Made by a program: the position numbers and the translations under genes. Below are positions 1 through 15,755 of a stretch of 16,868 nt of DNA, piece after piece. Where the stretch lies: the IMG/VR virus record IMGVR_UViG_2671180804_000001; one strand, given 5' to 3'. The stretch comes from a virus (Duplodnaviria; Heunggongvirae; Uroviricota; Caudoviricetes). The notes under the pieces are model-generated. The model did not search any database. It was given only the letters and a program-made list of their open reading frames with translations, and was not told the origin of the DNA. Numbering within the stretch: the stretch's first letter is position 1; the number at the start of each line of letters is the position of its first letter.

Positions 1-891
1 TTACTTTGTAATGAGATCGGGGTCAACTTCGCTTAACCGGCTTCGTTTTGACAGGTTGCCGGTCTTTCTTTTTTTCACTTTCGCCAGTTCTTCCGCAGAG
101 TAATGCGACGCGACATCCAGCCGTCGAAGCCCCATTTTGATGTACTCGCTGTTGATCTCAATACCAATGAATTTTCGTCCGCTGGCGATGGCTACGGCAC
201 CGGTAGTAAAGCTACCAGCAAACGGGTCGAGAACGATATCGCCTGGGTTGGAAGAGGCGAGAATAATGCGTTTCAGTAAGGCTTCCGGTTTTTGCGTCGG
301 GTGGTTTTCATATTCATCCATCAAATAACGCACGCGCGGAAAATCCCAAACGTTACCCGGTACTTTTTGATGATTGTAAGGCTGTGGAGGATTTTTGCGA
401 TAATCGATCAACGCGCGCTGCGATCCGGTTTTGGCTTCTACCAGAATAGCATCACCGTTGAATGTGTAGTTCTTTGCGTCTTTCACCATCATCAGGATGG
501 GTTCGTACATGGAGCCGTAGTGTTTTTTCGCCTGCACTCCAGAACTGTCATATGACCAGACGATGCGACTTTTGATGGTAAAAAGCTTGCGGCACTGGAG
601 ATCGATAAAGGGCATGTTTTCCGTACTGTTCATGATGTACATGCTGCCCTGCTTTTTCAGAACGCGGTGGCACTCTGCAATCACTTCAAACAGCCAGTCG
701 ATAAACAGATCTTCTTTCCAGGCTTCGATCAGACCATCAAAATTTTTACCGATGTTATATGGTGGGTCGGCAAAGATCAGATCGACACTTTCGGCGGGGA
801 TCTTTTTAAGTTCGGCAAGCGCATCACCGTGAATAATGGTCTTAGCTTCATTACCAAACCGGGTCGGTTCACATCCTGTTCTCATGGTCAC
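1..891 (-). CDS. yhdJ: DNA adenine (N6) methyltransferase, YhdJ-type
   Basis: 296-aa ORF with a DPPY catalytic motif (FADPPYNIG) preceding an AdoMet-binding motif (LDPFAGSFTTG), the order typical of beta-class amino-methyltransferases. Sequence and length match my recollection of enterobacterial YhdJ. The stop codon sits at window positions 1..3. Confidence 0.85.
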   Translation of the reverse strand: MTMRTGCEPTRFGNEAKTIIHGDALAELKKIPAESVDLIFADPPYNIGKNFDGLIEAWKEDLFIDWLFEVIAECHRVLKKQGSMYIMNSTENMPFIDLQCRKLFTIKSRIVWSYDSSGVQAKKHYGSMYEPILMMVKDAKNYTFNGDAILVEAKTGSQRALIDYRKNPPQPYNHQKVPGNVWDFPRVRYLMDEYENHPTQKPEALLKRIILASSNPGDIVLDPFAGSFTTGAVAIASGRKFIGIEINSEYIKMGLRRLDVASHYSAEELAKVKKRKTGNLSKRSRLSEVDPDLITK

Positions 892-910
892 TCCCTTTGT
901 GACACCTATA

Positions 911-946
911 AAAAAGGCGCTTCCCCATGCCGAGTAGCGCCTTTTT
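911..946. terminator. Bidirectional hairpin (possible intrinsic terminator) in the yhdJ-int intergenic region
   Basis: AAAAAGGCGC - 16-nt loop - GCGCCTTTTT: a GC stem flanked by an A-tract on one side and a T-tract on the other. The loop is long, so the call is weak. Confidence 0.35.
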
Positions 947-1114
947 AATCAAGCATTTAGCTAACCTGAATTAGTTCATGCCGTACTGTCAGATTAGCTG
1001 TTTTCATGCTTTGAGGTGGTTTTTATATTTTATTTAAAATCAATTGGTTATATGAAATTATGACTGTATATTGTTCCAGTGCTTTTTGTTGTTTATGCTA
1101 TTATGCAAGCAATT

Positions 1115-1138
1115 CTGTATAAACATTTGTATAAACAC
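1115..1138 (+). promoter_or_regulatory. Tandem 12-bp direct repeat upstream of int (possible operator or arm-type site)
   Basis: ctgtataaacat / ttgtataaacac repeated head to tail, about 20 bp upstream of the integrase start. Confidence 0.3.
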
Positions 1139-1158
1139 TTTGGGCTGGGTAATGGTCT

Positions 1159-2295
1159 ATGGCTGGCGAACTTAACAAACTGAGCGACAGGAAGTTAAAG
1201 GGATTACATGGCATCCCGGCCAGTAAGATTGAGTTTTATGCTGATGGTGCCGGGTTGAGCGCTAAGGTAACTCTCAAAGAGGCCCGTTACTCGCGTGATA
1301 AATGTCGCCAGTGGCTGGCCTCAGGTAAAGACCCAAAGCACCAGTTGGCGCTAACTACTCAGGAAACGCTTAAACCGGTCACGGTGCAGGAAGCTATCGA
1401 ATACTGGATACGCGAATATGCGGAAGAAAACCGTGCGAACGTTGAGCGGCATAAAGCGGAGCTGCGCAAACACATTTACCCTTATATTGGGAAAATGGCG
1501 CTCGCTGACTGCGAAACCCGTTACTGGCTTGACTGCTTTGACAGGATGAAAAAGAAAACGCCGGTTGCTGCGGGTTATGTGTTCCAGATGTGTAAGCAGG
1601 CTTTGAAATTCTGCCGCGTTCGCCGTTACGCCGTCAGTACCGCCCTTGAAGATTTGAGTATTCCCGACGTTGGTAAAAAGCAGGCGAAAAAAGATCGGGT
1701 ACTGAAAGATAAAGAGGTTGGGGGATTGTGGGCAGCGATATCGTCCGGTGATGTTTTTTTGCCTTACTACACAAACTTGCTCAGAATCGCCACTTTGTTT
1801 GGTTGCCGCACCCAGGAGGCTAGATTATCAGAGTGGACCGAATGGGATATGGATGCGTGGGTGTGGACTGTTCCGAAAGCGCATAGTAAAGGCGGTGAAA
1901 AAATTGTACGCCCTGTTCCGGAGGCGATGCGCTCATTCATTGAAATGCTCCACGATGAGACAAAATCATCCGGCTATCTTCTAGGAGTAGTGAAGAATAG
2001 CGAGGCAGTTAGCCAGTGGGGCCGTAGCGTTTATAAAAAACTGGGGCACTCTGAACCCTGGACATTACATGATCTACGGCGAACGCTTGCAACGCATATG
2101 AATGATATGGGTATCGCTCCACACGTTGTTGAACAGTTGCTGGGCCACTCAATGCCGGGGGTTATGGCTATCTATAACCGTAGCCTGTACTTGCCTGAGA
2201 AGCTGGACGCGCTGAACAAATGGTATGACCGCATAGAACTTCTTGCGGGTAATCATCAAAATGTGGTTCTGTTATCTGTAACGAATAGAAATTAA
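1159..2295 (+). CDS. int: Tyrosine site-specific integrase (P4-type)
   Basis: 378 aa. C-terminal catalytic region contains HDLRRT, LLGHS and a tyrosine in AIYNRS, matching the R..HxxR..Y signature of tyrosine recombinases. First in-frame ATG after an upstream stop; RBS is weak. Confidence 0.9.
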   Translation: MAGELNKLSDRKLKGLHGIPASKIEFYADGAGLSAKVTLKEARYSRDKCRQWLASGKDPKHQLALTTQETLKPVTVQEAIEYWIREYAEENRANVERHKAELRKHIYPYIGKMALADCETRYWLDCFDRMKKKTPVAAGYVFQMCKQALKFCRVRRYAVSTALEDLSIPDVGKKQAKKDRVLKDKEVGGLWAAISSGDVFLPYYTNLLRIATLFGCRTQEARLSEWTEWDMDAWVWTVPKAHSKGGEKIVRPVPEAMRSFIEMLHDETKSSGYLLGVVKNSEAVSQWGRSVYKKLGHSEPWTLHDLRRTLATHMNDMGIAPHVVEQLLGHSMPGVMAIYNRSLYLPEKLDALNKWYDRIELLAGNHQNVVLLSVTNRN

Positions 2296-2387
2296 AATGA
2301 TATTGCGGGTCTAGGTCGGCCAACCGAAAAGCGGGATACCCTACCCGTCTGGCCCGCAAATTATTTAGGGGCGTTGAGGGTGACGGT

Positions 2388-3212
2388 ATGGGTATGCCAT
2401 TGCGTGAGTATTATCCTATAACTCGAGCGGCTAGTTTATTAGGATATGAAACGAATGATCTTTTACACTGGGCCTCTACTGGTTCAATACGATTATTCAT
2501 TAATTTCGACGTAACCAACATAACAAAAGGGTATGTTGTATTCACAGATGAAGGCCTTTCTTTGAGAACGAAATTAATTGAAAAAGGTATCGTTTCTGAT
2601 TGGTTTTCGAGGGTTTATAATTTAAAAAATATTAGGGATATTAACAGCCCAGACCCTAAAATAAATTATGATGGGAGTGAGCTTATTTTAAAGGATGCAT
2701 TGGAATGTGGGTTTAGTGGCTTTTGGCAACTACCTAAAACATTCTTTGGATTGACCGAGCTTTATGATATTCATCCTCAATTCTTCCAGGTGTGGATGTC
2801 AGTATCGAACAAGATGATAGTTAACTTTAATAGTGAGGAACCTATTGATTTTGATTTGGCTGATATTTATCTCATGAAAAATGACTTTATCATGTTAAGA
2901 GATAGTAGAGATGGTGAGTCATTACCTAGTTTTTATAATGGCGGTGTATTACCTCCTGACACTGAAGTTTCAACAGTCGCACTAAATCCAGGGAGGGCAG
3001 AACATCATGCAAAAAAGAGAGAGGAAGTATTAAAAGCTGCCATTTATATTAAACATTGCCACCCCGAACTGTGTAACAATTATACTAACTGGGCTAATGC
3101 TATTAGTGACCATGCTCATAAGTTTTGGCGCAGTGGTGAAGCACCCTTATCAATTAAAACTATTGCAGCATTAATTGGTGAGGCTCATAGGCTACCAACA
3201 CCATCATCGTAA
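2388..3212 (+). CDS. Hypothetical protein, AT-rich cargo gene
   Basis: 274-aa ORF with a GAGGGTGA RBS upstream. A sampled 60-nt stretch (2581..2640) is about 27% G+C against about 62% sampled in the primase gene. No Walker A or other motif recognised by eye. Confidence 0.6.
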   Translation: MGMPLREYYPITRAASLLGYETNDLLHWASTGSIRLFINFDVTNITKGYVVFTDEGLSLRTKLIEKGIVSDWFSRVYNLKNIRDINSPDPKINYDGSELILKDALECGFSGFWQLPKTFFGLTELYDIHPQFFQVWMSVSNKMIVNFNSEEPIDFDLADIYLMKNDFIMLRDSRDGESLPSFYNGGVLPPDTEVSTVALNPGRAEHHAKKREEVLKAAIYIKHCHPELCNNYTNWANAISDHAHKFWRSGEAPLSIKTIAALIGEAHRLPTPSS

Positions 3213-3352
3213 GCCGGTTCCCGAGTTAGCCTAATGCCTCCCCGAGTTATGCTAACTCGGGTTTCAATACAAAGAAATATGCATCAAGATTCTCCAAACA
3301 ACGCCAGAACAGATAGGAAGTGTTCCTTCTGAGAGCGTTAACTGGAGGGTTT

Positions 3353-3637
3353 ATGCTAAATACTGTTTTCATCCCACCAACGGCTGAGCAGCGCCGCCAA
3401 ATTCTTAGGGACTACGGATTTGAATATGACCGACGTATTCGTGAGGCCGAATGCTTGGAAATAACTAGTCTTTCCCGCTCTACCCGCTGGAATATGGAAA
3501 ATGATAGTAAGTTTCCCACCCGCTGCCACTTTGGGCGTAACAGCTGCGCATGGCTCCTATCTGACATTCTTTGGTGGGTTCGTAATCCGCCTTCAGTGTT
3601 AAACGTAAATAATCCGCACAGCCGCAAGTCTGCATAA
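3353..3637 (+). CDS. alpA: AlpA-family phage regulatory protein (HTH, Xis-like)
   Basis: The segment ECLEITSLSRSTRWNMENDSKFPTRCHFGRNSCAWLLSDILWWV fits the AlpA pattern (HTH with SRST..., then GRxxxW and a W-containing helix). The ORF track starts at GTG 3320; I prefer ATG 3353 because GGAGGG lies 5 nt upstream. Confidence 0.7.
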   Translation: MLNTVFIPPTAEQRRQILRDYGFEYDRRIREAECLEITSLSRSTRWNMENDSKFPTRCHFGRNSCAWLLSDILWWVRNPPSVLNVNNPHSRKSA

Positions 3638-3753
3638 ACAGTTTAGATAAGATCATTACTGAGCATTTGTTGCGTGCTGTTGCGTTAGTTATACAGCAGT
3701 ATTGCTAACGCTGTCGCGGCGGCTCTCAATTTGAATATATTGGAGCACTGAAA

Positions 3754-4566
3754 ATGTTATCGAAAAAATTTACTGCCTTAACTGGTAGCGGCCAAACTCA
3801 ATCTGAAACCAGCCCGAAGGATATTTCTGGTAATAATTTTGCTGCGCGAATTCCTGTAACCCTAAGCAATATCGGCGGGAAAGAAACTCAGGCTGTAAGC
3901 GGCCGTAAGCTGCATACGTTTCTGGCTGTAGGGCGTGACTTTACCAACTGGATCAAAGGGCGCATTAAGCAGTACGGGTTCGTCGAAGGGGTGGATTATA
4001 TGATTGTCGAATATTTGACCTCGCCAAAACGGGCGAGCTCAAAATCTCGCCAGCGTATTGAGCATGACTACATTGTCAGCCTGAATATGGCTAAAGAGCT
4101 TTCGATGGTTGAACGTAACGCGCAAGGCAAGATGGCCCGCCAGTATTTCATCGACTGTGAAGAGCGTCTGCGCCGCGTAGCGCCAGAGGAATACGAGGCG
4201 GCGTTGCTGGGCTGGCGTAAAAATCGTGTAGCTGCCTGTGAAGATCATAAAAGCATGGCCGATGCAATGAAGGGCTATATTGAGCGTACCGGCGACAGGC
4301 AACACGGATTTGCCTACAGCAATGAATGCTCGTTCCTGAATAGCCTTGTGCTGGGTGTGCATCCTCGAACGTGGGCGAAAAAGAAAGAAATTCCGGTAAA
4401 GCAGGTTCGTGACCATATGAATGCAGATCAACTGGCACAGCTGGCTTATTTGGAAAGCCGTGATTGTGCTCTGCTGGATCTTGATACCCGTACGGCAACC
4501 CGCAAGACAAAACTCACCGAACTGGCACAACGCTGGCTGGTTAGACGTGTTGGAGGTGCCGGATGA
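3754..4566 (+). CDS. Phage antirepressor-like protein (AntA/AntB N-terminal domain)
   Basis: 270 aa. N-terminal segment QAVSGRKLHTFLAVGRDFTNWIKGRIKQYGFVEGVDYMI resembles the AntA antirepressor domain. GGAG RBS 8 nt upstream of the ATG. Confidence 0.65.
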   Translation: MLSKKFTALTGSGQTQSETSPKDISGNNFAARIPVTLSNIGGKETQAVSGRKLHTFLAVGRDFTNWIKGRIKQYGFVEGVDYMIVEYLTSPKRASSKSRQRIEHDYIVSLNMAKELSMVERNAQGKMARQYFIDCEERLRRVAPEEYEAALLGWRKNRVAACEDHKSMADAMKGYIERTGDRQHGFAYSNECSFLNSLVLGVHPRTWAKKKEIPVKQVRDHMNADQLAQLAYLESRDCALLDLDTRTATRKTKLTELAQRWLVRRVGGAG

Positions 4567-4975
4567 TTGCGTATGAAGAAAAGGCGACCTTGCCGGGTCG
4601 CCAGTGCGGAATAAATCAAAAGCAAAATTATATTACCAGGCTGTCTGCTGGTGGTCAAAGGTTGAGCGATACGGGAATGATTGAGTTTTCTCCTGGTATC
4701 TCAGGAACTGCGGCAATGGCGCAGTTAGGGGGTACTGCATTGCAGCATACCCAATCACCTGAGTTTTCAGTAGCGACCATCTCACAGATAGTCGGTTGCA
4801 TTCTCAACACCCGCCAATACTTCCCCCAATGGGGGGAGTGTGAGCCGGTGGCACATACCCTGTTTTTGCGCACCTCATTAGGATGTGTACAAATCCTTCT
4901 TTTGTGCCCCCCCGTTCTGGGGCGCTCAAATATTGAGTGTCGAGGCCAGCGCAATTTTGCGCCCGCTGATTTTAT

Positions 4976-5161
4976 TCAGGATTTTGGCTCTTCTTTTGCC
5001 TTTTGGCGCTGGCGGCGTTTGATTTCGCCTTTCGCAGCAGTGACAAGAAACCCTGCGGTACTTTCACCTTCATGTTTAAAAAGCTCGATATCTTCCATCA
5101 CATCATGGGGGATTCGAACTGTGGTCATTTGTGACTTTGCATTCTTCGCACCTGTTGCCAT
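4976..5161 (-). CDS. Small DNA-binding regulator, ribbon-helix-helix-like (putative repressor)
   Basis: 61 aa with strong AAGGAG RBS on the minus strand. TTVRIPHDVMEDIELF followed by helices and a basic tail fits a beta-strand/helix/helix RHH layout. Transcribed divergently from the replication operon. Confidence 0.5.
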   Translation of the reverse strand: MATGAKNAKSQMTTVRIPHDVMEDIELFKHEGESTAGFLVTAAKGEIKRRQRQKAKEEPKS

Positions 5162-5355
5162 TACTGAAACTCCTTATGTTAGGTGTATTTCAGTATACGC
5201 AAAAAAAATAAAAGAAAAAGGCTTGAAGTGTATTTCACTTTGGGCTAGTTTGAATATTAAAGGTGACATACACCTTTCAAGTGCGAAGCCCGGTAGTGCT
5301 AGGAACACTAACCGGGCCTCTAACCACCGCCGTTAACGTAGATAACGAGGCAGCT
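5162..5355. promoter_or_regulatory. Divergent control region between the RHH regulator and the replication operon
   Basis: 194-bp gap between divergent starts. Contains a 10-bp direct repeat GTGTATTTCA (5183..5192 and 5228..5237), a GTATAC palindrome at 5193..5198, an inverted repeat AGGTG-ACATA-CACCT (5261..5275) and a long imperfect hairpin at 5288..5317. Confidence 0.45.
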
Positions 5356-5631
5356 ATGAAAGATCATATCACACACCCGCAAGGGCGGGATTCTGACAAC
5401 CAAAAATTAATGCCAGCCTACACATGGCTTTTCCTCGGCACACCAAAAGGCCAGACCTGCACACCTGTAGTTATCCGTACTGCCGCCGACACGGAAGAAG
5501 AAGCCCGAGCATGGTATCCCCGTTGGGATCTGACGTTCGCCGCGAAGATTCGCTCTGAATGTTCTTTGTACCAGTACCGCAACGGTGCTTTCGAATTAAC
5601 CGTGTCAGGGCTGGAGGTGCGCCATGCCTAA
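5356..5631 (+). CDS. Hypothetical protein (first gene of replication operon)
   Basis: ATG at 5356 with GAGG RBS 5 nt upstream. The ORF track extends to 5263, but that upstream part overlaps the leader hairpin. 91 aa. Confidence 0.5.
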
Positions 5632-5815
5632 TCTGAGCATGCTGGATATGGGCGACAAATTTCGCTCTCTGGAAGTCCTGTTAGCTGCGGCGCTGGAAAT
5701 GAACTGGAGTAAAGACGATGAGAGCGATATCGCCGTTGAGTTGATTGATATTGCTCTCCAGCGTTGCCGTGAATTGCGTCAGCAGGTGGATTTACCGGGG
5801 GTGAAGCATGTGTGA
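5624..5815 (+). CDS. Hypothetical protein
   Basis: 63 aa. GGAGG RBS; start overlaps the upstream stop by 8 nt, indicating translational coupling. Confidence 0.5.
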
Positions 5816-6116
5816 TATCTACCATCAACTTGTAAAGCACGCGCCAGATTTCAGAAGACATTCTGATGATGATTTATCTGAGGTTTCTGACGTCTGTGGC
5901 GAGGCAGCACGCGCTGTCAGCAATACCCTTACCCTGATTGGAAACCTGATGCTTGAGGCATCGCTGAGTGAGGAATACAGCAACGAAAACGCACGCCGCG
6001 ACATGATGTTGCTGGGTGACACGCTGCGAAATCTTCCCCGGCTAGCTGAGGCTCTGGAGCAGAACAGTTGCACAGCCAATTTTGTGCTCAGGCAGCGCCA
6101 GGGGGTGTTCAAATGA
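5808..6116 (+). CDS. Hypothetical protein
   Basis: 102 aa. Start overlaps the upstream gene by 8 nt within the same operon. Confidence 0.5.
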   Translation: MCDIYHQLVKHAPDFRRHSDDDLSEVSDVCGEAARAVSNTLTLIGNLMLEASLSEEYSNENARRDMMLLGDTLRNLPRLAEALEQNSCTANFVLRQRQGVFK

Positions 6117-6481
6117 TCAGTAACGTTAAATTCAACGAACTGGAAAAGCGCCTCGATTTGCTGGTGGAGAAGGTACTGAACCTCGAGCTGCAGATCAAAT
6201 CACTCACAGATAGCCAGGGTGGCGAAATCCCCACGGGTATGAGTCCTGTTACTACGCTGGCGGCGGAGTTTGGCATTTCAACCAAGAAGGCCGAAGAACT
6301 AGCGAAAAACACAGGGGTAATGCTGGTACGGCTAAAATCAGGCGGGTTCGTGGCTCCTGATGAGAAATTCAGGGAGGCGGCGCGGCTGGTGCTGCGTAGT
6401 GCAAAACGTAAATACGGATCGGCATACTGGTATCACCCGCTGATTGGTAAGTTCCAGATGAGTGGAGGTATCCCGCAATGA
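6113..6481 (+). CDS. Hypothetical protein with coiled-coil-like N-terminus
   Basis: ATG at 6113 preceded by GGGGGTG and overlapping the upstream stop (ATGA). The ORF track begins at 6068; the internal ATG is better placed. 122 aa. Confidence 0.5.
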   Translation: MISNVKFNELEKRLDLLVEKVLNLELQIKSLTDSQGGEIPTGMSPVTTLAAEFGISTKKAEELAKNTGVMLVRLKSGGFVAPDEKFREAARLVLRSAKRKYGSAYWYHPLIGKFQMSGGIPQ

Positions 6482-6843
6482 CCGATATTTTTGAAGTGAT
6501 AGGCCCATTGTTCCGCAAACTGACCGAAACATGTATTGCTCACCAGATAGCGGAAACCGGTTCGGCAACCTTGCTGGTGGAAAGCGATAAGTATATGGCC
6601 CGCTATCGCTTCACGCTGGAGCCGCGCGTAACTGAAAACGTATTGATGAAATATATGATTTTTGGCTGTTTTGAAGAATTCGGGCGCGATGAGGGGTTAA
6701 GGCGTTTGCGGGATATTCTGCTGACCTGCTTTACCGACGATGGCGATATTAACGAAATGGGGTTGCAGATAGTGAAAAGCTGCCACCTTGAATACCTGCA
6801 TGAAGATTTGGAAGCGGATCTTTCCAATAAGGTGCTGCACTGA
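6478..6843 (+). CDS. Hypothetical protein
   Basis: 121 aa. GGAGG RBS; ATGA overlap with the upstream gene and TGATG overlap with the downstream primase gene. Confidence 0.5.
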   Translation: MTDIFEVIGPLFRKLTETCIAHQIAETGSATLLVESDKYMARYRFTLEPRVTENVLMKYMIFGCFEEFGRDEGLRRLRDILLTCFTDDGDINEMGLQIVKSCHLEYLHEDLEADLSNKVLH

Positions 6844-8975
6844 TGAAGATGAAAAACGCCCCAAACATTAAGTGTCTGCCAAAGGACAAGTTTACTGAGG
6901 CGATTATTTTTGCGGGGGAAGATGCTTATTCACACGCGCAGCACTGGATCGAGAGCGAGGGGAAAAGGGCGGGGGATGATGTGCCGCCTGTGTATCTGGG
7001 GAAAAAGCAGCTGGAGGAGCTTGAAAGGCTGAATATCATCGATCAGGGGCGTCGTTGCGTACGCGTGATTAGAGCTGGCGAGCTTTCCGAAATGCAGATA
7101 AGCACTATCGCAACCAAACTGGCGCTGGCGGATGTGAAAGAGGCCCGGCTGTTTAATGGCATGTTTGAGCCTCAGCCGAAGGAGAACTGGACGGATGTAC
7201 TTCCACGGCTCAGGGAAGATGCCGAGCGTGGGGAAAGTATTGTGGTAAATCTGCCTGTGAAAAAAAGGGAGCCAAAGCCTGAACCGGGTGATGAACTGAA
7301 ACCCCGCGTAGAGAGCCGTAACGATGGCCTGTACTGGATCACGCCAAAGGTGGATAAGGACAGCGGAGAAATAATCAATAACGAAACGTGGATGTGTTCG
7401 CCGCTTGAGGTGGTGGGGTCCGGTAGTGACGGGGCCGAGCGCTATCTCGTTTTGCGCTGGCGTTCGCCACGTGGCCATGAAGATATTACCAGGGCGATCC
7501 CCTGTGCTGATATCGGTGAGCGTGACGGCTGGCGCTATCTAAAGGCTGGTGGGGTAAACGTAACGACTAAAAGTACATTCCGGGCAATTCTTGCCGACTG
7601 GCTACAGCAATGTGGTGCAGGGCAGGAATGGATTATTAGCCATACCACCGGCTGGCATCACGGCGCATACATCATGCCAGATGGTGAAGTTATCGGTGAT
7701 CCGGAAATGCCTATTCTCTTTAACGGTCGCAGCGCTGCATCTTCCGGTTATGCCGTGGCTGGAACTGCTGAGAGTTGGCGGGATTCAGTGGCATATCTGG
7801 CAGGAGGCAACCCATCGATGATGCTGGGTGTGGCTGCGGCATTGTCTGCGCCGCTGATCGGGCTGGTGGGCGCTGATGGCTTCGGCGTCCATTTGTTCGA
7901 ACAGTCCAGCGCCGGTAAGACTACCACCGCAAATATTGCGAGCAGTATTTGGGGCGAGCCCGACGCTTTGAGGTTGACCTGGTACGGTACCGCGCTTGGT
8001 ATTGCTAACGAGGCAGAGGCGCATAACGACAGCCTGTTACCACTTGATGAGGTAGGGCAGGGCAGCAGTGCTAAAGATGTCGCCACGTCTGCTTACACTT
8101 TGTTTAACGGGGCTGGGAAGTTGCAGGGGGCTAAAGAGGGTGGCAACCGGGAGCTAAAGCGCTGGCGAACTGTTGCGATCAGTACCGGGGAAATGGATAT
8201 TGAAACATTCCTGGCTGCTGGTGGAATTAGGGTGAAAGCTGGGCAGCTGGTGCGCCTGCTGAATATCCCCATGGAGAAATCCACGGCCTTTAACGGGCTG
8301 GCTAACGGAAAGGCCCACGCCGATGCACTGAAAGAGTCATGGATTGATAACCACGGCGCAGCAGGGCGTGAGTGGGTAAAATGGCTGGCAACCCACCAGC
8401 AGGAGGCTAAACAGGCTGTGCGGGATGCGCAGACGCGCTGGCGCAGTCTTATTCCGGCTGATTATGGTGAACAGGTTCATCGTGTGGCTGAGCGCTTCGC
8501 CATTCTTGAGGCTGCGCTGGTAACTGGTTCGCCGATAACTGGCTGGAGTGAACAAGCCAGCCGGGATGCTATTCAGCATAGCTTCAATGCCTGGGTAAAA
8601 GAATTCGGAACAGGTAACAAGGAGCACCAGCAGATCATCGAGCAGTGCGAGGCCTTTCTGAACGCGCATGGTATGAGCCGCTATGCTCCGCTGCCATACT
8701 GCCCGTCAGATATGCCAATTCGTGATATGGCTGGATACCGCGAAAGGGGCAAGCATGATGATTCGCCGATGGTGTTTTATACCTTCCCTTCTGCGTTCGA
8801 AAAAGAGATAGCGCAGGGGTTCAATGCGAAGCAGTTCGCCAGAGTTCTGTCTGAATCTGGAATGTTGACACCCCCAGCAAGCGGCAGGGGATACCAGCGG
8901 AAATCACCGCGTATCGATGGGCGTCAGATTAATGTTTACGTCATTCAGTACCAGCAGGAGGGAACCGAAGAATAA
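6843..8975 (+). CDS. Replication initiator, primase/helicase-like protein (P4 alpha-like role)
   Basis: 710 aa, last gene of the coupled operon and immediately upstream of the iteron array. Contains a P-loop-like motif (LFEQSSAGKTTTAN). Resembles satellite/prophage primase-helicase proteins of the DUF927 type; that assignment is from memory, not a search. Confidence 0.75.
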   Translation: MKMKNAPNIKCLPKDKFTEAIIFAGEDAYSHAQHWIESEGKRAGDDVPPVYLGKKQLEELERLNIIDQGRRCVRVIRAGELSEMQISTIATKLALADVKEARLFNGMFEPQPKENWTDVLPRLREDAERGESIVVNLPVKKREPKPEPGDELKPRVESRNDGLYWITPKVDKDSGEIINNETWMCSPLEVVGSGSDGAERYLVLRWRSPRGHEDITRAIPCADIGERDGWRYLKAGGVNVTTKSTFRAILADWLQQCGAGQEWIISHTTGWHHGAYIMPDGEVIGDPEMPILFNGRSAASSGYAVAGTAESWRDSVAYLAGGNPSMMLGVAAALSAPLIGLVGADGFGVHLFEQSSAGKTTTANIASSIWGEPDALRLTWYGTALGIANEAEAHNDSLLPLDEVGQGSSAKDVATSAYTLFNGAGKLQGAKEGGNRELKRWRTVAISTGEMDIETFLAAGGIRVKAGQLVRLLNIPMEKSTAFNGLANGKAHADALKESWIDNHGAAGREWVKWLATHQQEAKQAVRDAQTRWRSLIPADYGEQVHRVAERFAILEAALVTGSPITGWSEQASRDAIQHSFNAWVKEFGTGNKEHQQIIEQCEAFLNAHGMSRYAPLPYCPSDMPIRDMAGYRERGKHDDSPMVFYTFPSAFEKEIAQGFNAKQFARVLSESGMLTPPASGRGYQRKSPRIDGRQINVYVIQYQQEGTEE

Positions 8976-8995
8976 TTACACGTGAGGTTTATTTT

Positions 8996-9284
8996 GTTGG
9001 TTCAGTTGGTTCAGTAGGTAGTGTGTATCGTTATCGTGGTGTTTATATTGATTATTTTACACAGAAACTGAACCAACACTGAACCAACAAATGACTGTTT
9101 TGAACCAACAAGCGGGGGATTTGAACCAACATACCTACCCTGCCCGAATAAGTGTTTTTACTGAACCAACATAAAAACGGCGTTGTTGGTTCAAAACGGG
9201 GCTTTGTTGGTTCACTAAATAAAAATAAGTCTTTTAAAAACAATGTTCTTTACAAATTGAACCAACTGAACCAACTGAACCAAC
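8996..9284. repeat. Iteron array, putative origin of replication
   Basis: 12 exact copies of the 9-mer TGAACCAAC / GTTGGTTCA. Forward copies start at 9069, 9080, 9101, 9122, 9162, 9258, 9267, 9276; reverse copies at 8996, 9005, 9185, 9206. The array begins about 20 bp after the primase stop. Confidence 0.75.
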
Positions 9285-9321
9285 ATAGTTTTGTTTATAT
9301 ACGCAGAAAATGAGGTGAAAA

Positions 9322-9543
9322 ATGTTGGATGCCGGAATGATTGAGAAGAAATCAGCAGGAAGTGCATCGTTGTGGATGCGTGAGGCTGTGGAGGAAATAG
9401 ATAAACAATTTGGCGTTGGCTATGCCAGCAACAACCCTGAGCTGGTGGCAGGGTTCATGCAGGCAGCAGCCATTGATCAGGCGGGGATGTATATCCGGTC
9501 GCTGGTGGAAACGCTGGATTTATGGCCCGGTTCGCTGGCTTAA
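9322..9543 (+). CDS. Hypothetical small protein
   Basis: 73 aa with GAGGTG RBS, directly downstream of the iterons. Confidence 0.5.
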   Translation: MLDAGMIEKKSAGSASLWMREAVEEIDKQFGVGYASNNPELVAGFMQAAAIDQAGMYIRSLVETLDLWPGSLA

Positions 9544-9588
9544 AGCTGAGAGTAAGCCAAAAAACAACATAATTGATGGAGGTAATTT

Positions 9589-9783
9589 ATGGCCTTTAAC
9601 GATTTTATGGAAGAATCGGAATTGTTTGAGCTACTGGGCAAGAAAAAAACGGCTGTATGGCGGTTACGAAAAGACCATGGTTTTCCGAATCCTGTTCTTA
9701 CCTACCCGTCGCGCTACAGCCGCAAAGCTGTAATGAAATGGCTTGAGGATGGTGGTATTAACCGTACGGTTTGTGGTTATTGA
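9589..9783 (+). CDS. AlpA/Xis-like helix-turn-helix DNA-binding protein (second copy in the element)
   Basis: 64 aa with GGAGG RBS. ELFELLGKKKTAVWRLRKDHGFPNPVLTYPSRYSRKAVMKWLE fits the AlpA/excisionase HTH pattern. Confidence 0.6.
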   Translation: MAFNDFMEESELFELLGKKKTAVWRLRKDHGFPNPVLTYPSRYSRKAVMKWLEDGGINRTVCGY

Positions 9784-9798
9784 ACCTGAATTTATCTG

Positions 9799-9827
9799 GC
9801 TGCACTCTTTTGGGTGCAGTTATTTTC
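9799..9827 (+). terminator. Rho-independent terminator after the AlpA-like gene
   Basis: GCTGCAC - tcttttgg - GTGCAGT stem-loop followed by TATTTTCC. Confidence 0.5.
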
Positions 9828-10048
9828 CTGTCAGGTAGGGATGGATGTTGATCATTACCTGTAATCATTATTCTCCGGCATACCGTTCGCCTCTTCGCGT
9901 AAAGTTGCCTGGTCATTGGAAACCTCGCCTTTCTGACCAGTTAGAAAAATCCTAGTGGTTAACATCTGTTGAATAAAACAGCAAAAAGGAGTTCACACCT
10001 TACGCACTATACAGTGCTACGCCCAAAGCCGCGTCAACGCTGGCTTTC

Positions 10049-10150
10049 GGGGGTATACACCCCTTGTGCATAAATAGTGAAACTTGTATACAAAAATGCA
10101 GAAAATCAGCCTGCAAGCCGCACCAGATAAGAGTTGTCTGTGTATACAGA
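10049..10150. promoter_or_regulatory. Cluster of GTATAC-centred palindromes (putative operators) upstream of the AT-rich operon
   Basis: GGGGGTATACACCCC (10049..10063), the perfect palindrome TTGTATACAA (10085..10094) and TGTATACA (about 10143..10150), all within roughly 100 bp of a 570-bp non-coding region. Confidence 0.35.
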
Positions 10151-10353
10151 TAGGATTTAAATTTGTTTAAACTAACCACCCTTTGATATGGTTTGATTGT
10201 CCAACTGTCTGCTGGCTGTATGTGTACCTAACGGGGAAGAGTGATGTTCCTCGCACTAATGTTTTCATTAAACGGGTATCTTTGATGGAGTTTGGTTAAG
10301 AATTCACAGCAGGGTTGTAGAATGTTTTTATCATTAATGGAGATGTATGGAAT

Positions 10354-10710
10354 ATGCAAAGACTGGTTGAAATTAAAAAACGCCTTGAATTAATCGAAGA
10401 AGCATTAAATGAACAGTATCCAAATTATAAATCAGACCCTGAGATTACAGCACAAATTACAGAATTGAAAGGACATGTACAAGACGCTCGTAAAATAATA
10501 CAAAAAAAGAAATCCCTGGGTGAACTATCAGACTTTGAAATAGCATTTATCGAACCAGCTATTAATGATGTTTACTTAACCTCGATCGATAAAATTCGTC
10601 GTGGAGCCAAACCTAGCCCTAGCGTGAGTGAACATATATACGATACGTCTGTGACTTTGGATCATTGGTTGGGCGAAATTGGTAGGTTTAAATCCAATCA
10701 GAATGGTTAA
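10354..10710 (+). CDS. Hypothetical protein, gene 1 of the AT-rich cargo operon
   Basis: 118 aa, charged and predicted helical. A sampled stretch (10381..10440) is about 33% G+C. No recognisable motif. Confidence 0.55.
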   Translation: MQRLVEIKKRLELIEEALNEQYPNYKSDPEITAQITELKGHVQDARKIIQKKKSLGELSDFEIAFIEPAINDVYLTSIDKIRRGAKPSPSVSEHIYDTSVTLDHWLGEIGRFKSNQNG

Positions 10711-10761
10711 AGCGATTTGTAATGTTTTGATTTTTGTAAGGGTGGAATTCGGAGGGGAGAA

Positions 10762-11664
10762 ATGGTAGCAAGCGTATCAACTAAGGAAAATTTGCCTAAG
10801 CTGGAGACAACCTTTCATGTCAAAGCGAATGGTTCAAGTATAAATATCAAACTTGGTGCTTTAGAGTTTAATCATGTCTTATCTCCATGTGAAAAATATT
10901 TATATGTTCAACTTTGTAACTCAACGTCTGAGGACTCAGGTAAATTCATTAAATTAGATGTAACTACTGGACGTAAAATTTATTCGGTAGGGCCTGAGTG
11001 GGGATGGGCCAGAGGCTATACATTTAATCATGATGGAAATATTTGTGTTGAGACAGATCACTATGGTACCTGGTTAGTTAATGATGATGGAGGTATTTCA
11101 GACCGCGCTGATTACTATATGCGCCGCGTGAAGACTGCTGATTATGGAACGATGAGAGCTTTGCCTAATTTTTTTGAGTTGCATGGGAAAACACCTGAAA
11201 CATGTGCCGAGGCGATGGAGGCTCTTGAACGATTTTTGAGTACATGTTCATCCATGTTCCATGGATTGTCGTATGGTGCTCTGGCATTAAAATCACGTGC
11301 TGAGATTCAAGCCTTTTTGGGTGATAACTCAGGGGCACTACAGAGTTGCGTTGATGCTTTATGCCTTGACCCAAAAGTTACAGTTAAACGAATGCTGAAT
11401 TCACTTAGTAAAAAACTTAATCTTGATAAAGACACTTTAAAACCTTCCGATTGGGTTGAGTCGCTAAAAGTTGATATAGAAGCCAATCGTAATATTGAAA
11501 TCAATAAGATTGAAGAAAATCGCAATCAGATAAAAGATAAGGATGTGATTGTTGTCAGTGACATGAAAATTATGAATAAAGAACCACATGCTAAAAATAA
11601 CATCATGAAATATTTTTTGCTGATAGTGGTCTTAGTGGCAGCATTAGTTGCTCTCTTCAAATGA
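10762..11664 (+). CDS. Hypothetical membrane-anchored protein, gene 2 of the AT-rich cargo operon
   Basis: 300 aa with strong GGAGGGGAG RBS. Single hydrophobic helix at the extreme C-terminus (YFLLIVVLVAALVALF); the rest looks soluble. AT-rich. Confidence 0.6.
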   Translation: MVASVSTKENLPKLETTFHVKANGSSINIKLGALEFNHVLSPCEKYLYVQLCNSTSEDSGKFIKLDVTTGRKIYSVGPEWGWARGYTFNHDGNICVETDHYGTWLVNDDGGISDRADYYMRRVKTADYGTMRALPNFFELHGKTPETCAEAMEALERFLSTCSSMFHGLSYGALALKSRAEIQAFLGDNSGALQSCVDALCLDPKVTVKRMLNSLSKKLNLDKDTLKPSDWVESLKVDIEANRNIEINKIEENRNQIKDKDVIVVSDMKIMNKEPHAKNNIMKYFLLIVVLVAALVALFK

Positions 11665-11702
11665 TATTCATATAGGTGATTAATAATCATAAGGTTTAGT
11701 TT

Positions 11703-12224
11703 ATGCAGGAGCTAACGATACAGTTTGCCAAAGATTTACACAGTGTGTTTCAAAGCAATCGCAATAAATTAGATAAGATAGGAATACCATTTTTTTATAG
11801 TTTTCCGACAAATGCATGCCAGGGCGCATCTGTGTATCTTAGCTTATTTTTTACGTGGCTTGTGCCAGAGGCTACTGTCAGAGTTGTTAAAGGAAGTCAT
11901 AGAACGCTGGATCATCATCACTACTGGGTCGAACTTGATGGGAAGGTGTTTGATTTGACAAATGCTCAGTTCGAATCCTGGTTGGGAGAAAGGTATCCTG
12001 AGCTGGACTCTCCTGTATATGCTCAAAGAAAGCATCCTCTTCGTAATTATTTTTTTTATAAAGAAAGAGAGTCGGCCATCCGTGCTTATGCAACATTCTG
12101 TAGCGAGCATGCGAACGTAAAAGATGTAGACAAGGCGCAATGGTTTGTTATGGGGAAACTCAGAGAAATGGGCTGGGAACTTGAGCAGAACATCGCTGGT
12201 GGCCGATTGATAAAAATAAGATAG
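11703..12224 (+). CDS. Hypothetical protein, gene 3 of the AT-rich cargo operon
   Basis: 173 aa. Contains a conserved-looking Cys (TNACQGAS) and a His cluster (LDHHHYWVELDG) that could form a Cys/His catalytic pair; this is speculative. AT-rich. Confidence 0.55.
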   Translation: MQELTIQFAKDLHSVFQSNRNKLDKIGIPFFYSFPTNACQGASVYLSLFFTWLVPEATVRVVKGSHRTLDHHHYWVELDGKVFDLTNAQFESWLGERYPELDSPVYAQRKHPLRNYFFYKERESAIRAYATFCSEHANVKDVDKAQWFVMGKLREMGWELEQNIAGGRLIKIR

Positions 12225-12249
12225 CCAGTTACCACCACTGATAGCGATT

Positions 12250-12274
12250 GGCGATGTTGTTACATCGCCTTTTT
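12250..12274 (+). terminator. Rho-independent terminator closing the AT-rich operon
   Basis: Perfect 8-bp stem GGCGATGT / ACATCGCC with a 4-nt loop, followed by TTTTT. Confidence 0.6.
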
Positions 12275-12366
12275 CATATCATTATCGTTTCATTTTATGC
12301 AATAAATGTATTGATCGTTTCATAATCAGCAACTACAATCACTGTATAAACATCAGGGGGGGTGGT

Positions 12367-12543
12367 ATGAACAAGAAGCAAAACTCACAAGTAGTGCTAC
12401 TGACGCGTGGTCAGGTTGAAGCTTTGCAACGCATTCAGGAAGAGGAGCGTAAACGTTCTGAATTTGGCATACAGCCATCAATCCATGAAATCGCACGCAA
12501 GCTGGTGGATAAGGCGCTGAGCTATCACGGAGGTGCTTTCTGA
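12367..12543 (+). CDS. Small putative DNA-binding protein (RHH-like), absent from the supplied ORF track
   Basis: 58-aa ORF translated by hand: MNKKQNSQVVLLTRGQVEALQRIQEEERKRSEFGIQPSIHEIARKLVDKALSYHGGAF. GGGGGTGG RBS upstream. Its stop overlaps the next start as TGATG. It falls below the apparent length cut-off of the ORF track. Confidence 0.45.
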   Translation: MNKKQNSQVVLLTRGQVEALQRIQEEERKRSEFGIQPSIHEIARKLVDKALSYHGGAF

Positions 12544-13379
12544 TGGCAAAAGTATCGTTAACAGCACTCCTTGGATTTACTGGTGGCGCAAATAACGTCC
12601 GCAATTCCCAAAAGCCAACACTTCGACAGCGGGAAAAATCCATGAGCAAAAAAGAGCGTAGCTTTGCACATCTTGATGCTGCGGCTACTCAAACGATTGT
12701 GGTGCAGGACCAGCAGCAAACCCAGACTCTGAAACCAGCCGGTTCTTACCGTATTTCCAGTCAGCATAGCCGGGGGCATAACGTTGCAATATCAGAGGAA
12801 GGGAAGAATAGCCCTGTCCTGGCGGTTAAGCTGTTACGTGAAACGAAACTAAGCTCCAGTAAAATCCGTGCTCGCCTTCGGGAAGAGCCTGCGGCTTTAT
12901 CAAAGTTCACGGCTAATTTCATGGAAGAAAATATGCCAGGCTGGGAATTTCTCAACGATGAGGAAAAATCCAGAACTGCCATGCAGCTATCCATTCGCGA
13001 TAATGATCAGAACGGTTATCACGCTTCCCGGAATCGTGCATCTCAAACGCTTAAATCGCTTGAAGAACCACTTACTGATGATGAAAAGCAGGCGATGCTC
13101 GAAAATCTTCGTCTGGACCAAAATGCTTCCGATCCTGATACCCCGGATAATGTTGCGGCCCGAAAACAAGCTGACGATGAATATCAGGAGCAGGTTGCCA
13201 GGGCTATTGTTGCCAGAAACAATCAAATGCGTTCCACCGGTGTGTTCTTGCCAGGCGATACCCGTACAGCTGGTGGTAAGCCCTCCGCACCTCGAAATGA
13301 GTTGCAGATGATTAAGTCTGGTCTTAAATCCGGGGCTATTGTGGTTTCTCAGCCCTCAAATGGAGAAATTCATCCATGA
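12543..13379 (+). CDS. Hypothetical protein, long paralogue of the following gene
   Basis: 278 aa with GGAGGTG RBS 7 nt upstream; coupled to the small ORF upstream. Shares a domain of about 100 aa with the next gene. Confidence 0.5.
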   Translation: MAKVSLTALLGFTGGANNVRNSQKPTLRQREKSMSKKERSFAHLDAAATQTIVVQDQQQTQTLKPAGSYRISSQHSRGHNVAISEEGKNSPVLAVKLLRETKLSSSKIRARLREEPAALSKFTANFMEENMPGWEFLNDEEKSRTAMQLSIRDNDQNGYHASRNRASQTLKSLEEPLTDDEKQAMLENLRLDQNASDPDTPDNVAARKQADDEYQEQVARAIVARNNQMRSTGVFLPGDTRTAGGKPSAPRNELQMIKSGLKSGAIVVSQPSNGEIHP

Positions 13380-14878: not shown

Positions 14879-14889
14879 CTGCTGGCGTT

Positions 14890-15642: not shown

Positions 15643-15755
15643 TACCGACAGGCACTCAGGAGGTGACCGTATATAAAAATGGGTCCTTCCTGAGACTTTT
15701 GTAAGGCACGGGCATTGCGCGCCGCAGTGTTTTCCTAGCTACAGGTTTTGAATTT

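What the first reader, a model, noticed from the sequence alone, without database searches (positions are those of the whole stretch)
2388..3212. Very AT-rich orphan gene immediately after int, at a P4-type cargo position
This 274-aa ORF is about 27% G+C in a sampled stretch, far below its neighbours, and sits between int and the AlpA gene. In P4-like satellites the int-proximal locus is a published hotspot for variable anti-phage genes. The protein has no nucleotide-binding or nuclease motif I can recognise, so it could be an uncharacterised single-gene defence or anti-defence factor.
Basis: partly seen in the sequence, partly recalled or inferred. Interest (0 to 1): 0.65.

Follow-up and report, generated by a model that had tools for sequence, protein, structure and literature searches.

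The report
Swappable gene slot between int and alpA
The AT-rich gene is real but not an orphan: it belongs to a large unnamed protein family found only in a one-gene, exchangeable slot between the integrase and the AlpA regulator of phage satellites, just after a known structured RNA, and its function is still untested.

Summary
ORF 2388-3212 (+, 274 aa) exists and lies between int and alpA. It has 36.7% G+C against 48-49% in its neighbours, and dN/dS is 0.17, so it is a functional gene. It is not an orphan: an exhaustive profile search found 535 clusters of relatives, none covered by Pfam, PADLOC, NCBIfam or PDB sequences. The AF2 model (pLDDT 86.5) shows an N-terminal MerR/Xis-type winged helix, a variable beta-rich middle and a conserved basic helical C-terminus.

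All 12 family members whose context I examined lie int -> X -> alpA, in PICI-like, capsid-forming PICI and P4-like satellites. None occurs in 50,697 phage genomes.

In 150 int-alpA intervals the gap almost always holds one co-oriented, AT-rich gene. These genes come from at least five unrelated families: this one 73, DUF6387 34, others. Two elements with 100% identical Int and 98% identical AlpA carry unrelated slot genes. The slot's left border is the Rfam int-alpA RNA (RF02996, window 2304-2371), ending 16 nt before the ATG.

So the variable int-proximal slot is supported, but it is not the published P4 psu-int hotspot. No occupant matches a known defence family. I favour a non-enzymatic phage-conflict accessory protein (0.4). 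The main rival is an Stl-like regulator or helper sensor (0.3).

The parts
1159..2295 (+). P4-type tyrosine integrase, forming the left flank of the slot. It carries a 90-bp in-frame deletion (30 aa of the arm-binding domain) relative to its closest relatives, at window 1271/1272.
   Evidence: Pfam hits PF00589, PF22022 and PF13356. It is 98% identical to the Int of cf-PICIs at the yhdJ-fis site. The deletion is seen in blastn against L008.
2304..2371 (+). int-alpA RNA motif (Rfam RF02996): a three-way junction followed by a U-rich tail. It is the conserved left border of the slot and ends 16 nt before the ATG of the ORF.
   Evidence: cmscan scores 60.8 bits against a gathering score of 35.8, full length 1-71. 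The spacer is 90% identical across elements whose Int proteins are only about 60% identical, with compensatory changes in the outer stem. The same RNA precedes X, DUF6387 and an unrelated 245-aa gene.
2376..2383 (+). Shine-Dalgarno-like GAGGGTGA of the slot gene, lying inside the conserved border sequence TTAGGGGCGTTGAGGGTGA.
   Evidence: Read from the sequence. It is invariant in alignment A5.
2388..3212 (+). The slot gene 'X' (274 aa). Residues 8-52 form a MerR/Xis-type winged HTH, 68-172 a variable beta-rich domain, about 175-200 a disordered linker, and 203-267 a conserved basic three-helix domain.
3220..3261 (+). Hairpin just after the stop codon, built from three copies of CCCGAGTTA (two direct, one inverted) and followed by UUUC. 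It is terminator-like and travels with the cassette.
   Evidence: the repeat finder families I2, I6 and D2. Folding gives -22.1 kcal/mol, z -3.9. Three exact copies occur here and none elsewhere in the window. It follows only 10 of 56 unique X alleles.
3290..3352 (+). Conserved alpA leader, the right border of the slot. It is an imperfect hairpin in which UUCUCC pairs with the alpA Shine-Dalgarno GGAGG.
   Evidence: In alignment A6 it is conserved in 7 of the 8 aligned elements, behind both X and DUF6387 genes; PE15 (L010) is divergent. Folding gives -20.5 kcal/mol, z -2.0.
3353..3637 (+). alpA (94 aa), the AlpA-family regulator and right flank of the slot.
   Evidence: PF05930 E 1.7e-10. It is 100% identical to the AlpA of E. 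coli EC09 and 1368KP. The start codon was chosen from the RefSeq annotation of those genomes.

Best explanation
**Shown: what the gene is.**
- ORF 2388-3212 is a functional gene of a large, unnamed protein family.
- The protein has an N-terminal MerR/Xis-type winged helix, a hypervariable middle and a conserved basic helical C-terminus.
- It has no enzymatic motif and no membrane segment.

**Shown: the slot.**
- The family's only observed home is a one-gene slot between the P4-type integrase and alpA of AlpA-regulated phage satellites.
- Conserved borders flank the slot. On the left are the int 3' end and the int-alpA RNA, which ends 16 nt before the ATG. On the right is the alpA leader.
- Crossovers fall at both borders. 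Unrelated genes replace each other in the slot, independently of both flanks.
- In this window and the relatives aligned, each cassette is AT-rich, co-oriented with int and followed by its own hairpin.

**Inferred: expression.**
- The gene is transcribed from the int side through the int-alpA RNA leader.
- In some elements its start overlaps or abuts the int stop codon.
- It is therefore made while the satellite is quiescent and the alpA operon is off.

**Inferred, my preferred reading: function.**
- It is a moron-like accessory gene acting in phage-satellite conflict.
- It would exclude or interfere with infecting phages by binding DNA or a phage protein rather than by catalysis.
- The variable middle domain would be the specificity determinant.
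- Cassette exchange between satellites would supply the diversity.
For: **The gene is real and constrained.**
- dN/dS is 0.17.
- Residues 1-30 and 196-270 are conserved across 53 relatives, while the middle is variable.

**Swapping occurs between conserved flanks.**
- L008 and L009 share 100% identical Int and 98% identical AlpA, yet their slot genes are unrelated.
- The window and L008/L009 share Int at 98%, but X is unrelated or only 26% identical.
- The window and EC09 share X at 99% and AlpA at 100%, but Int at only 61%.
- Homology to elements with the same int stops at 2390/2391, the start codon.

**Slot survey.**
- 146 of 150 int-alpA gaps measure 830-1550 bp.
- The occupants form 18 clusters. 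All genuine occupants have 28-40% G+C and lie on the int strand. The exceptions are two short (66 and 79 aa) minus-strand ORFs that are probably not genes and one IS transposase.
- The three largest families show no profile-profile homology to one another.

**Moron-like hallmarks.**
- There is a compositional dip.
- The gene has its own hairpin after the stop codon, and L003 and L009 have their own.

**Coupling to int.**
- The int-X gaps are 1, 1, 11 and -4 bp in L019, L021, L018 and L186.
- Elsewhere the int-alpA RNA lies 15-17 nt upstream of the start codon.

**Background from the literature.**
- Satellites carry antiviral genes in an int-proximal hotspot (PMC9122126).
- Six of 8 randomly chosen unknown genes from P4 defence loci protected against phages (bioRxiv 10.64898/2026.02.27.708500).
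Against: - No occupant family gave a credible hit in PADLOC, and none except DUF6387 in Pfam. The published P4 hotspot, by contrast, holds many known systems.
- The slot never holds more than one gene.
- The X family has a private distribution. All 12 contexts are int-X-alpA. It is absent from 50,697 phage genomes. Its single hit among 72,556 plasmids has the same X-alpA-antA context, with no int in PLSDB's partial gene table. Defence genes usually move between different kinds of mobile element.
- No effector domain is recognisable. The only identifiable fold is a DNA-binding-type winged helix, which fits a regulator as well.
- No experiment bears on function.
Confidence: 0.4

Rival explanations
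1. **Satellite regulator or helper sensor (Stl-like).** X binds DNA in the int-alpA control region through its winged helix. It keeps alpA and the island silent, or tunes them, until its variable middle domain is engaged by a helper-phage protein. Swapping the slot gene would then re-target the satellite to a different helper.
For: - The N-terminal winged HTH is the most conserved part of the family.
- Conserved ends around a variable middle resemble a sensor layout.
- The gene is strictly linked to int-alpA across four satellite architectures and is absent from phages.
- The protein appears non-enzymatic.
- Precedents exist for a regulator next to int: Stl/Rpr in Gram-positive PICIs, and 'merR' regulators in some Gram-negative PICIs (PMC6092414).
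- A luxR gene lies in the regulatory region next to alpA in PIME1 elements and is essential for excision (bioRxiv 10.64898/2026.01.12.698999).
- No repressor or helper sensor is known for Gram-negative PICIs (PMC6092414).
Against: - Unrelated proteins, DUF6387 among them, replace X between 98-100% identical flanks. The alpA leader stays the same. A repressor-operator pair could hardly tolerate that.
- The CCCGAGTTA repeats that might have been operators follow only 10 of 56 X alleles. They do not track the HTH sequence.
- The prototype EcCICFT073 appears to have alpA as its second ORF, with no slot gene, yet it is helper-inducible (PMC6092414, text on the ORF3 fusion; this is my inference).
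- X is co-directional with alpA, not divergent like Stl.
- The N-terminal domain is acidic (pI 5.6).
Confidence: 0.3
2. **Integration/excision accessory.** X is an architectural or directionality cofactor, or a regulator of Int, with an Xis-like N-terminal domain, and it acts together with Int and AlpA at the att sites.
For: - The gene lies immediately after int, and in some elements its start overlaps the int stop codon.
Against: - There is no co-variation with Int. The same X (99%) goes with Int proteins only 61% identical. The same Int (98-100%) goes with unrelated slot genes.
- AlpA/Vis proteins already supply the excisionase role in this element class (PMC6092414).
Confidence: 0.1
3. **Selfish or neutral filler.** The conserved borders recombine, and whatever AT-rich gene lies between them hitch-hikes. 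It has no role in phage interactions. It might instead be an addiction or host-adaptation gene, or DNA that serves as an H-NS-bound silencing pad for alpA.
For: - All occupants share low G+C whatever their family. That could reflect selection on the DNA, for example H-NS binding, rather than on the proteins.
- No function is detectable by any library.
Against: - Purifying selection acts on the protein, with dN/dS 0.17.
- Two domains are conserved across 535 clusters.
- The reading frames are intact in essentially all sampled slots.
- A dedicated conserved RNA leader and Shine-Dalgarno sequence precede the gene.
Confidence: 0.15

Closest known systems
P4-like satellite antiviral hotspot between psu and int (Rousset et al. 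2022, PMC9122126)
   Same: - It is an int-proximal locus of a phage satellite.
- Different genes occupy the same place in otherwise similar elements.
- Many occupants are of unknown function.
   Different: - The flanks differ: int-alpA RNA and alpA here, against psu and cos in P4.
- This slot holds exactly one gene, always on the int strand. The P4 hotspot holds one to several genes in either orientation.
- No known defence family appeared in the sampled slots.
- The element in the window has no psu, sid or delta.
Rfam RF02996 int-alpA RNA motif. As I recall, it comes from Weinberg et al. 2017 (NAR 45:10811); the held main text does not mention it.
   Same: The window has a full-length, high-scoring copy at 2304-2371.
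   Different: - The motif is known only as a candidate structured RNA between int and alpA genes, with no assigned function.
- New here: it lies 15-17 nt before the start codon of a variable gene from at least three unrelated families, and it marks the left recombination border of the slot.
SaPI/PICI master repressor Stl (Rpr) of Gram-positive PICIs
   Same: - Next to int.
- Carries an HTH.
- Very diverse between otherwise related islands.
- A single gene.
   Different: - X is co-directional with the regulated operon rather than divergent.
- It is replaceable by proteins with no recognisable HTH while the alpA leader stays constant.
- Neither DNA binding nor a phage inducer has been shown.
Prophage morons and single-gene DNA-binding exclusion proteins such as BstA (comparison from my own knowledge, not tested here)
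   Same: - A compositionally deviant gene with its own terminator.
- Inserted between conserved genes of a mobile element.
- About 300 aa, with an N-terminal DNA-binding-type domain and an uncharacterised remainder.
   Different: - No sequence or fold similarity to BstA or to any PADLOC family.
- No phenotype is known.
DUF6387 (PF19924)
   Same: It occupies the same slot, behind the same int-alpA RNA and ahead of the same alpA leader. It is also next to AlpA in the ICEKp258.2 island (PMC10763509).
   Different: It has no detectable homology to X (hhalign probability below 1%).

Membership tests
P4 psu-int antiviral hotspot | The host element is P4-like and carries psu, delta and sid. | tested here: not met
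   RefSeq annotation of the 98.8%-identical block in E. coli 1368KP and EC09 lists AlpA, AntA, Icd-like, DUF927 and PerC, but no psu, sid or delta. Pfam scans of the window ORFs agree.
P4 psu-int antiviral hotspot | The locus is bounded by psu/cos on one side and int on the other. | tested here: not met
   The locus is bounded by int plus the int-alpA RNA on one side and by alpA on the other.
P4 psu-int antiviral hotspot | Different genes occupy the same site in closely related elements. | tested here: met
   L008 and L009 have Int 100% and AlpA 98% identical but unrelated slot genes. The 148 occupants form 18 clusters.
P4 psu-int antiviral hotspot | Occupants include recognised defence systems. 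| tested here: not met
   Representatives of X, DUF6387, three smaller clusters and six singletons gave no credible PADLOC match; the only hit was Csx20 at E 0.0055, with no stretch passing on its own. PADLOC-DB dates from 2023, so newer systems could be missed.
Gram-negative PICI (AlpA type) | An integrase, an AlpA regulator and a primase/replication gene in one orientation, int first. | tested here: met
   int 1159-2295, alpA 3353-3637 and the DUF927 primase 6843-8975 are all on the + strand.
Gram-negative PICI (AlpA type) | Induction, replication and packaging depend on a helper phage. | not testable with these tools
   This needs experiments. In addition, int carries a 30-aa deletion in its arm-binding domain, so mobility of this copy is doubtful.
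Capsid-forming PICI (cf-PICI) | The element has its own capsid, protease, portal, connector, HNH and terminase module. | tested here: not met
   The window has none after the primase. Relatives with the same int do have the module (L008-L010).
Rfam RF02996 int-alpA RNA | The covariance-model score is above the curated gathering threshold. | tested here: met
   60.8 bits against 35.8, model positions 1-71 of 71.
MerR/Xis-type winged helix-turn-helix proteins | A fold match of the N-terminal domain to solved MerR, Xis or AlpA DNA-binding domains. | tested here: inconclusive
Stl/Rpr-type PICI master repressor | Transcribed divergently from the operon it represses, binding operators at that promoter. 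| tested here: not met
   X is co-directional with alpA. The candidate repeats follow only 10 of 56 alleles. Operator binding itself cannot be tested here.
Stl/Rpr-type PICI master repressor | Repression is lifted by a specific helper-phage protein. | not testable with these tools
   This needs interaction and induction assays.
Known anti-phage defence families (PADLOC-DB 2.0) | A profile match to a defence protein model. | tested here: not met
   No families matched at E <= 1.
DUF6387 (PF19924) | A Pfam or profile match. | tested here: not met
   No Pfam hit for X. hhalign of A2 against DUF6387 gives probability 0.1-0.3%.

The most novel reading that the evidence does not exclude
The int-alpA slot proteins are the missing helper-phage sensors of Gram-negative AlpA-type satellites. 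This covers the X family, DUF6387 and the other private families. Each would be made with int under control of the int-alpA RNA. Each would hold the island silent until it meets a particular phage product. Exchanging the cassette would re-target a satellite to a new helper. This would explain how helpers switch on alpA, which PMC6092414 leaves open, and it would give the int-alpA RNA a function.
Probability: 0.22. Interest if true: 0.85.

Novelty: new variant of a known kind. Interest (0 to 1): 0.55.

Why it matters
- Phage satellites are known to keep variable antiviral genes next to int. The described hotspot is the P4 psu-int locus.
- I found no paper describing this second, differently built variable locus. 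It is shared by PICI-like, capsid-forming PICI and P4-like satellites and lies next to AlpA in at least one genomic island.
- The locus holds one gene. A conserved structured RNA of unknown function precedes it. Its occupants come from a private pool of uncharacterised families, with more than 500 clusters for X alone.
- If the proteins act against phages, this is an untapped source of non-enzymatic defence or interference mechanisms.
- If they regulate the island, they bear on how Gram-negative satellites sense their helpers, which has been open since 2018.
- Either way the conserved borders give a simple handle for mining the slot: anchor on RF02996 and the alpA leader. The experiments needed are ordinary ones.

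Tried and rejected
**Direct annotation of X**
- Pfam, PADLOC, NCBIfam and PHROGs gave nothing usable.
- A Pfam scan of 53 family members gave no consistent hit.
- A profile search against PDB sequences gave nothing.
- Foldseek against BFVD viral structures gave nothing below E 0.08.
- The AFDB50 library was unavailable.

**Are the other slot families distant relatives of X?**
- I rejected this for DUF6387, the 216-220-aa family, three Xenorhabdus occupants and K-12 YfjH. hhalign probabilities were at most 2.2%.

**Are the CCCGAGTTA repeats operators matched to the X winged helix?**
- This is not supported. The repeats follow only 10 of 56 unique alleles and do not track the N-terminal sequence.

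**Is the divergence peak in X against E. coli 1368KP positive selection?**
- I rejected this. The divergence is a recombination tract running from 2105 to about codon 217, and dN/dS is 0.17.

**Searches that returned little**
- The genome-contig scan with AlpA returned only 7 loci, mostly Xenorhabdus.
- The search for related loci with alignment A2 failed for lack of a conserved stretch.
- The lookup of P0168 returned nothing.
- Literature searches found no paper on the gene between int and alpA or on DUF6387 function.
- The supplement of the paper I recall as the source of the int-alpA motif is not held.

**Promoters and terminators**
- The consensus scan found nothing above shuffled expectation near the gene.

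Full report
**1. The observation**

An ATG-initiated ORF of 274 aa runs from 2388 to 3212 on the + strand. Upstream is a tyrosine integrase at 1159-2295. Downstream is an AlpA-family gene, followed by an AntA/AntB antirepressor and a DUF927 primase, all on the same strand.

The ORF has 36.7% G+C and GC3 of 29%, against 49.0% for int and 48.1% for alpA. Pfam, PADLOC, NCBIfam and PHROGs give no usable match.

The gene is constrained. Against the 93.8%-identical allele of E. coli 1368KP, dN/dS is 0.17.

**2. Not an orphan**

The word-indexed search found only 9 clusters, from Raoultella, Klebsiella and Pectobacterium, at 40-47% identity. A profile of these was scored against 1.84 billion representatives. 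It found 535 clusters at E<=1e-3 and 186 at E<=1e-10.

Fifty-three members were aligned (A2). They have no consistent Pfam domain and no sequence relative in the PDB.

Conservation is concentrated in residues 1-30 and 196-270. Residues 46-105 are poorly conserved and often gapped.

**3. Structure**

With A2 as input, AlphaFold2 gave a model of mean pLDDT 86.5. Its parts are:
- a winged helix-turn-helix at residues 8-52;
- a beta-rich domain at 68-172;
- a disordered linker around 175-200;
- a three-helix C-terminal domain at 203-267, which is basic (pI 9.1).

There is no hydrophobic segment.

**4. Where the family lives**

I looked up the genomic context of 12 family members, chosen through the protein itself. 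All 12 have AlpA immediately downstream on the same strand. In 11 an annotated int lies immediately upstream. The twelfth, plasmid pKv8917, shows X-alpA-antA, but PLSDB's partial gene table lists no int.

The elements differ in architecture:
- PICI-like islands at the gcd-hpt site of E. coli and Klebsiella;
- capsid-forming PICIs with HK97-type head genes (L019, L021);
- P4-like elements with an alpha-type primase, Ogr/Delta, Ash or the derepression protein (L018, L020);
- elements with P2-type capsid and scaffold genes (L185, L186).

In several of them the start codon abuts or overlaps the int stop codon, with gaps of 1, 1, 11 and -4 bp.

tblastn finds the protein in none of 50,697 phage genomes. 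It finds it in one of 72,556 plasmids, again followed by alpA and antA.

**5. The slot is variable**

The window is E. coli. Its first 891 bases are yhdJ, and the element lies at the yhdJ-fis site.

Elements with the same integrase at that site are capsid-forming PICIs, with 96-97% nucleotide and 98% protein identity. Their homology to the window stops at 2390/2391, the start codon of the ORF. Their slot genes differ:
- ET670 (L008): a DUF6387 protein;
- KCJ3K291 (L009): a 313-aa distant family member (E 7e-36);
- PE15 (L010): a 272-aa member (E 1.5e-24).

ET670 and KCJ3K291 have 100% identical Int and 98% identical AlpA but unrelated slot genes. Conversely, EC09 has X at 99% and AlpA at 100% identity to the window, but an Int only 61% identical.

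To sample the slot independently of X, I collected relatives of AlpA from metagenomes and IMG/VR.
- Of 150 loci with an integrase upstream, 146 have an int-alpA gap of 830-1550 bp.
- The 148 occupants form 18 clusters. The X family has 73 (53 unique sequences) and DUF6387 has 34. A 216-220-aa family has 20, a 248-282-aa family has 7 and a 234-aa family has 2. The rest are singletons.
- All genuine occupants are on the int strand and have 28-40% G+C. The exceptions are two short (66 and 79 aa) minus-strand ORFs that are probably not genes and one IS transposase on the opposite strand at 51% G+C.
- Apart from DUF6387, no occupant hits Pfam. PADLOC gave only one weak hit (Csx20, E 0.0055, no stretch passing on its own).
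- The three largest families are not related by profile-profile comparison.

In CP4-57 of E. coli K-12 the same interval holds yfjH, on the opposite strand and unrelated to X.

**6. The borders**

The 92-nt spacer between int and the slot gene is about 90% identical among elements whose integrases are only about 60% identical and whose slot genes are unrelated. The outer stem shows compensatory changes: GCGGG/CCCGC, GCAAGG/CCTTGC and GCGAG/CTCGC.

This spacer is the Rfam family RF02996, the int-alpA RNA. It spans window 2304-2371 and scores 60.8 bits against a gathering score of 35.8, full length.

The same RNA lies 15-17 nt upstream of the start codon of X genes (L003, L007), of a DUF6387 gene (L057) and of an unrelated 245-aa gene (L101). 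By nhmmer it precedes 54 of 71 X occupants and 17 of 35 DUF6387 occupants. Its function is not known. I found no paper that discusses it beyond listing it.

Since only 16 nt separate it from the ATG, the slot gene's transcript must start upstream of the RNA and include it. I therefore infer that it is a cis-acting leader or attenuator fed by int transcription.

On the right, the last 60 nt or so before alpA are conserved in 7 of the 8 elements aligned, whatever the slot gene; PE15 (L010) is divergent. They fold so that UUCUCC pairs with the alpA Shine-Dalgarno sequence.

Between the stop codon of X and that leader lies cassette-specific DNA. In the window it is a hairpin made of three CCCGAGTTA copies at 3220-3261 (-22 kcal/mol, z -3.9). 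It accompanies only 10 of 56 X alleles. Other cassettes carry other hairpins with U-tracts.

**7. Mosaicism of this copy**

- Window 2105-10149 is 98.8% identical to the gcd-hpt island of E. coli 1368KP.
- Window 1-2390 matches the yhdJ-fis elements.
- Window 10150-15671 has no counterpart in either.

Against 1368KP, divergence is 6-12% from 2105 to about codon 217 of X and close to 0% afterwards. A crossover therefore lies inside the conserved C-terminal domain of X. The integrase has a 90-bp in-frame deletion in its arm-binding domain.

**8. What it most likely does**

Shown:
- It is a real gene of a large, position-restricted family.
- It sits in a single-gene slot with conserved borders.
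- Unrelated genes are exchanged in that slot independently of both flanks.

Inferred:
- It is expressed with int, through the int-alpA RNA, while the satellite is quiescent.

Two readings compete for function.

*Accessory conflict gene (confidence 0.4).* This rests on four points:
- the moron-like features: a compositional dip, its own hairpin, and swapping;
- replacement by unrelated proteins while the alpA leader stays constant;
- the apparent absence of any slot gene in the helper-inducible prototype EcCICFT073 (PMC6092414);
- the background that satellites keep antiviral genes next to int (PMC9122126) and that most unknown genes tested from such loci protect against phages (bioRxiv 10.64898/2026.02.27.708500).

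*Regulator or helper sensor (confidence 0.3).* This rests on five points:
- the winged helix;
- conserved ends around a variable middle;
- the strict linkage to int-alpA and absence from phages;
- the lack of any known defence family among the occupants;
- precedents for a regulator at this position: Stl/Rpr (PMC6092414), and luxR in PIME1 (bioRxiv 10.64898/2026.01.12.698999).

A role as cofactor of Int is unlikely because X does not co-vary with Int.

**9. Comparison with what is known, and novelty**

The int-alpA RNA is known as a motif. The P4 psu-int hotspot is known.

Not described in anything I could find:
- the one-gene int-alpA slot;
- its private gene pool;
- the fact that the RNA is its left border.

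The window's element is a PICI-like satellite. It is neither P4-like nor capsid-forming.

I rate this a new variant of a known kind, namely variable accessory loci of phage satellites. Interest is 0.55. The anatomy is clear and the experiments are simple, but the function is unknown. This particular allele is rare, present in 2 of 5,426 complete E. coli genomes. The RNA leader is present in 25 of 5,426.

Noticed in passing
window 2304-2371 (+): A full-length copy of the Rfam int-alpA RNA (RF02996, 60.8 bits) lies 16 nt upstream of the ORF's start codon. In other elements it precedes unrelated slot genes. Its function is unknown. Its outer stem plus U-rich tail resembles a terminator or attenuator at the end of int.
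   Followed up: yes
window 1271/1272 (within int, 1159-2295): The integrase lacks 90 bp (30 aa, in frame) of the N-terminal arm-binding domain that its 98%-identical relatives have (L008 17272-17361). This copy of the element may be unable to excise or integrate.
   Followed up: partly
window 1-2390, 2105-10149, 10150-15671: The element is a chimera. Its left end matches yhdJ-fis capsid-forming PICIs. Positions 2105-10149 are 98.8% identical to the gcd-hpt island of E. coli 1368KP. Positions 10150-15671 have no match in either. One crossover lies inside X at about codon 217.
   Followed up: yes
window 10354-12224 (+): A second AT-rich block holds three ORFs of 118, 300 and 173 aa at 36-42% G+C. 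They have no Pfam, PADLOC, NCBIfam or PHROG match above threshold. The block lies in the part of the element that is absent from its closest relatives, so it may be a second cargo locus. The 300-aa protein ends in a hydrophobic tail.
   Followed up: partly
window 3290-3352 (+): The conserved alpA leader folds so that UUCUCC pairs with the alpA Shine-Dalgarno GGAGG (-20.5 kcal/mol, z -2.0). It is conserved in 7 of 8 aligned elements whichever gene fills the slot, which suggests translational or attenuation control of alpA.
   Followed up: partly
window 3220-3261 (+): Three exact copies of CCCGAGTTA (two direct, one inverted) form a strong hairpin right after the ORF. The same sequence, not just the same structure, recurs behind X alleles that are only 29-46% identical. 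It is missing behind most alleles. Whether it is a terminator or a protein-binding site is unresolved.
   Followed up: partly
window 14057-15642 (+): A 273-aa protein shows weak similarity to phage minor tail/tape-measure proteins (PF10145, E 3e-4, below threshold). It is followed by a 250-aa SLT lytic transglycosylase (PF01464, E 3e-25). This is unusual content for a satellite that has no other tail genes.
   Followed up: no
L184 (E. coli K-12 CP4-57) 2645-3601, minus strand: In the prototype AlpA element CP4-57 the intA-alpA interval is also filled by one gene of unknown function, yfjH (318 aa). It is on the opposite strand, is unrelated to X, and has no int-alpA RNA upstream.
   Followed up: partly
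window 3320 vs 3353: The mechanical ORF for alpA starts at GTG 3320 (105 aa). RefSeq annotation of identical genes, and the conserved Shine-Dalgarno sequence, point to ATG 3353 (94 aa).
   Followed up: yes
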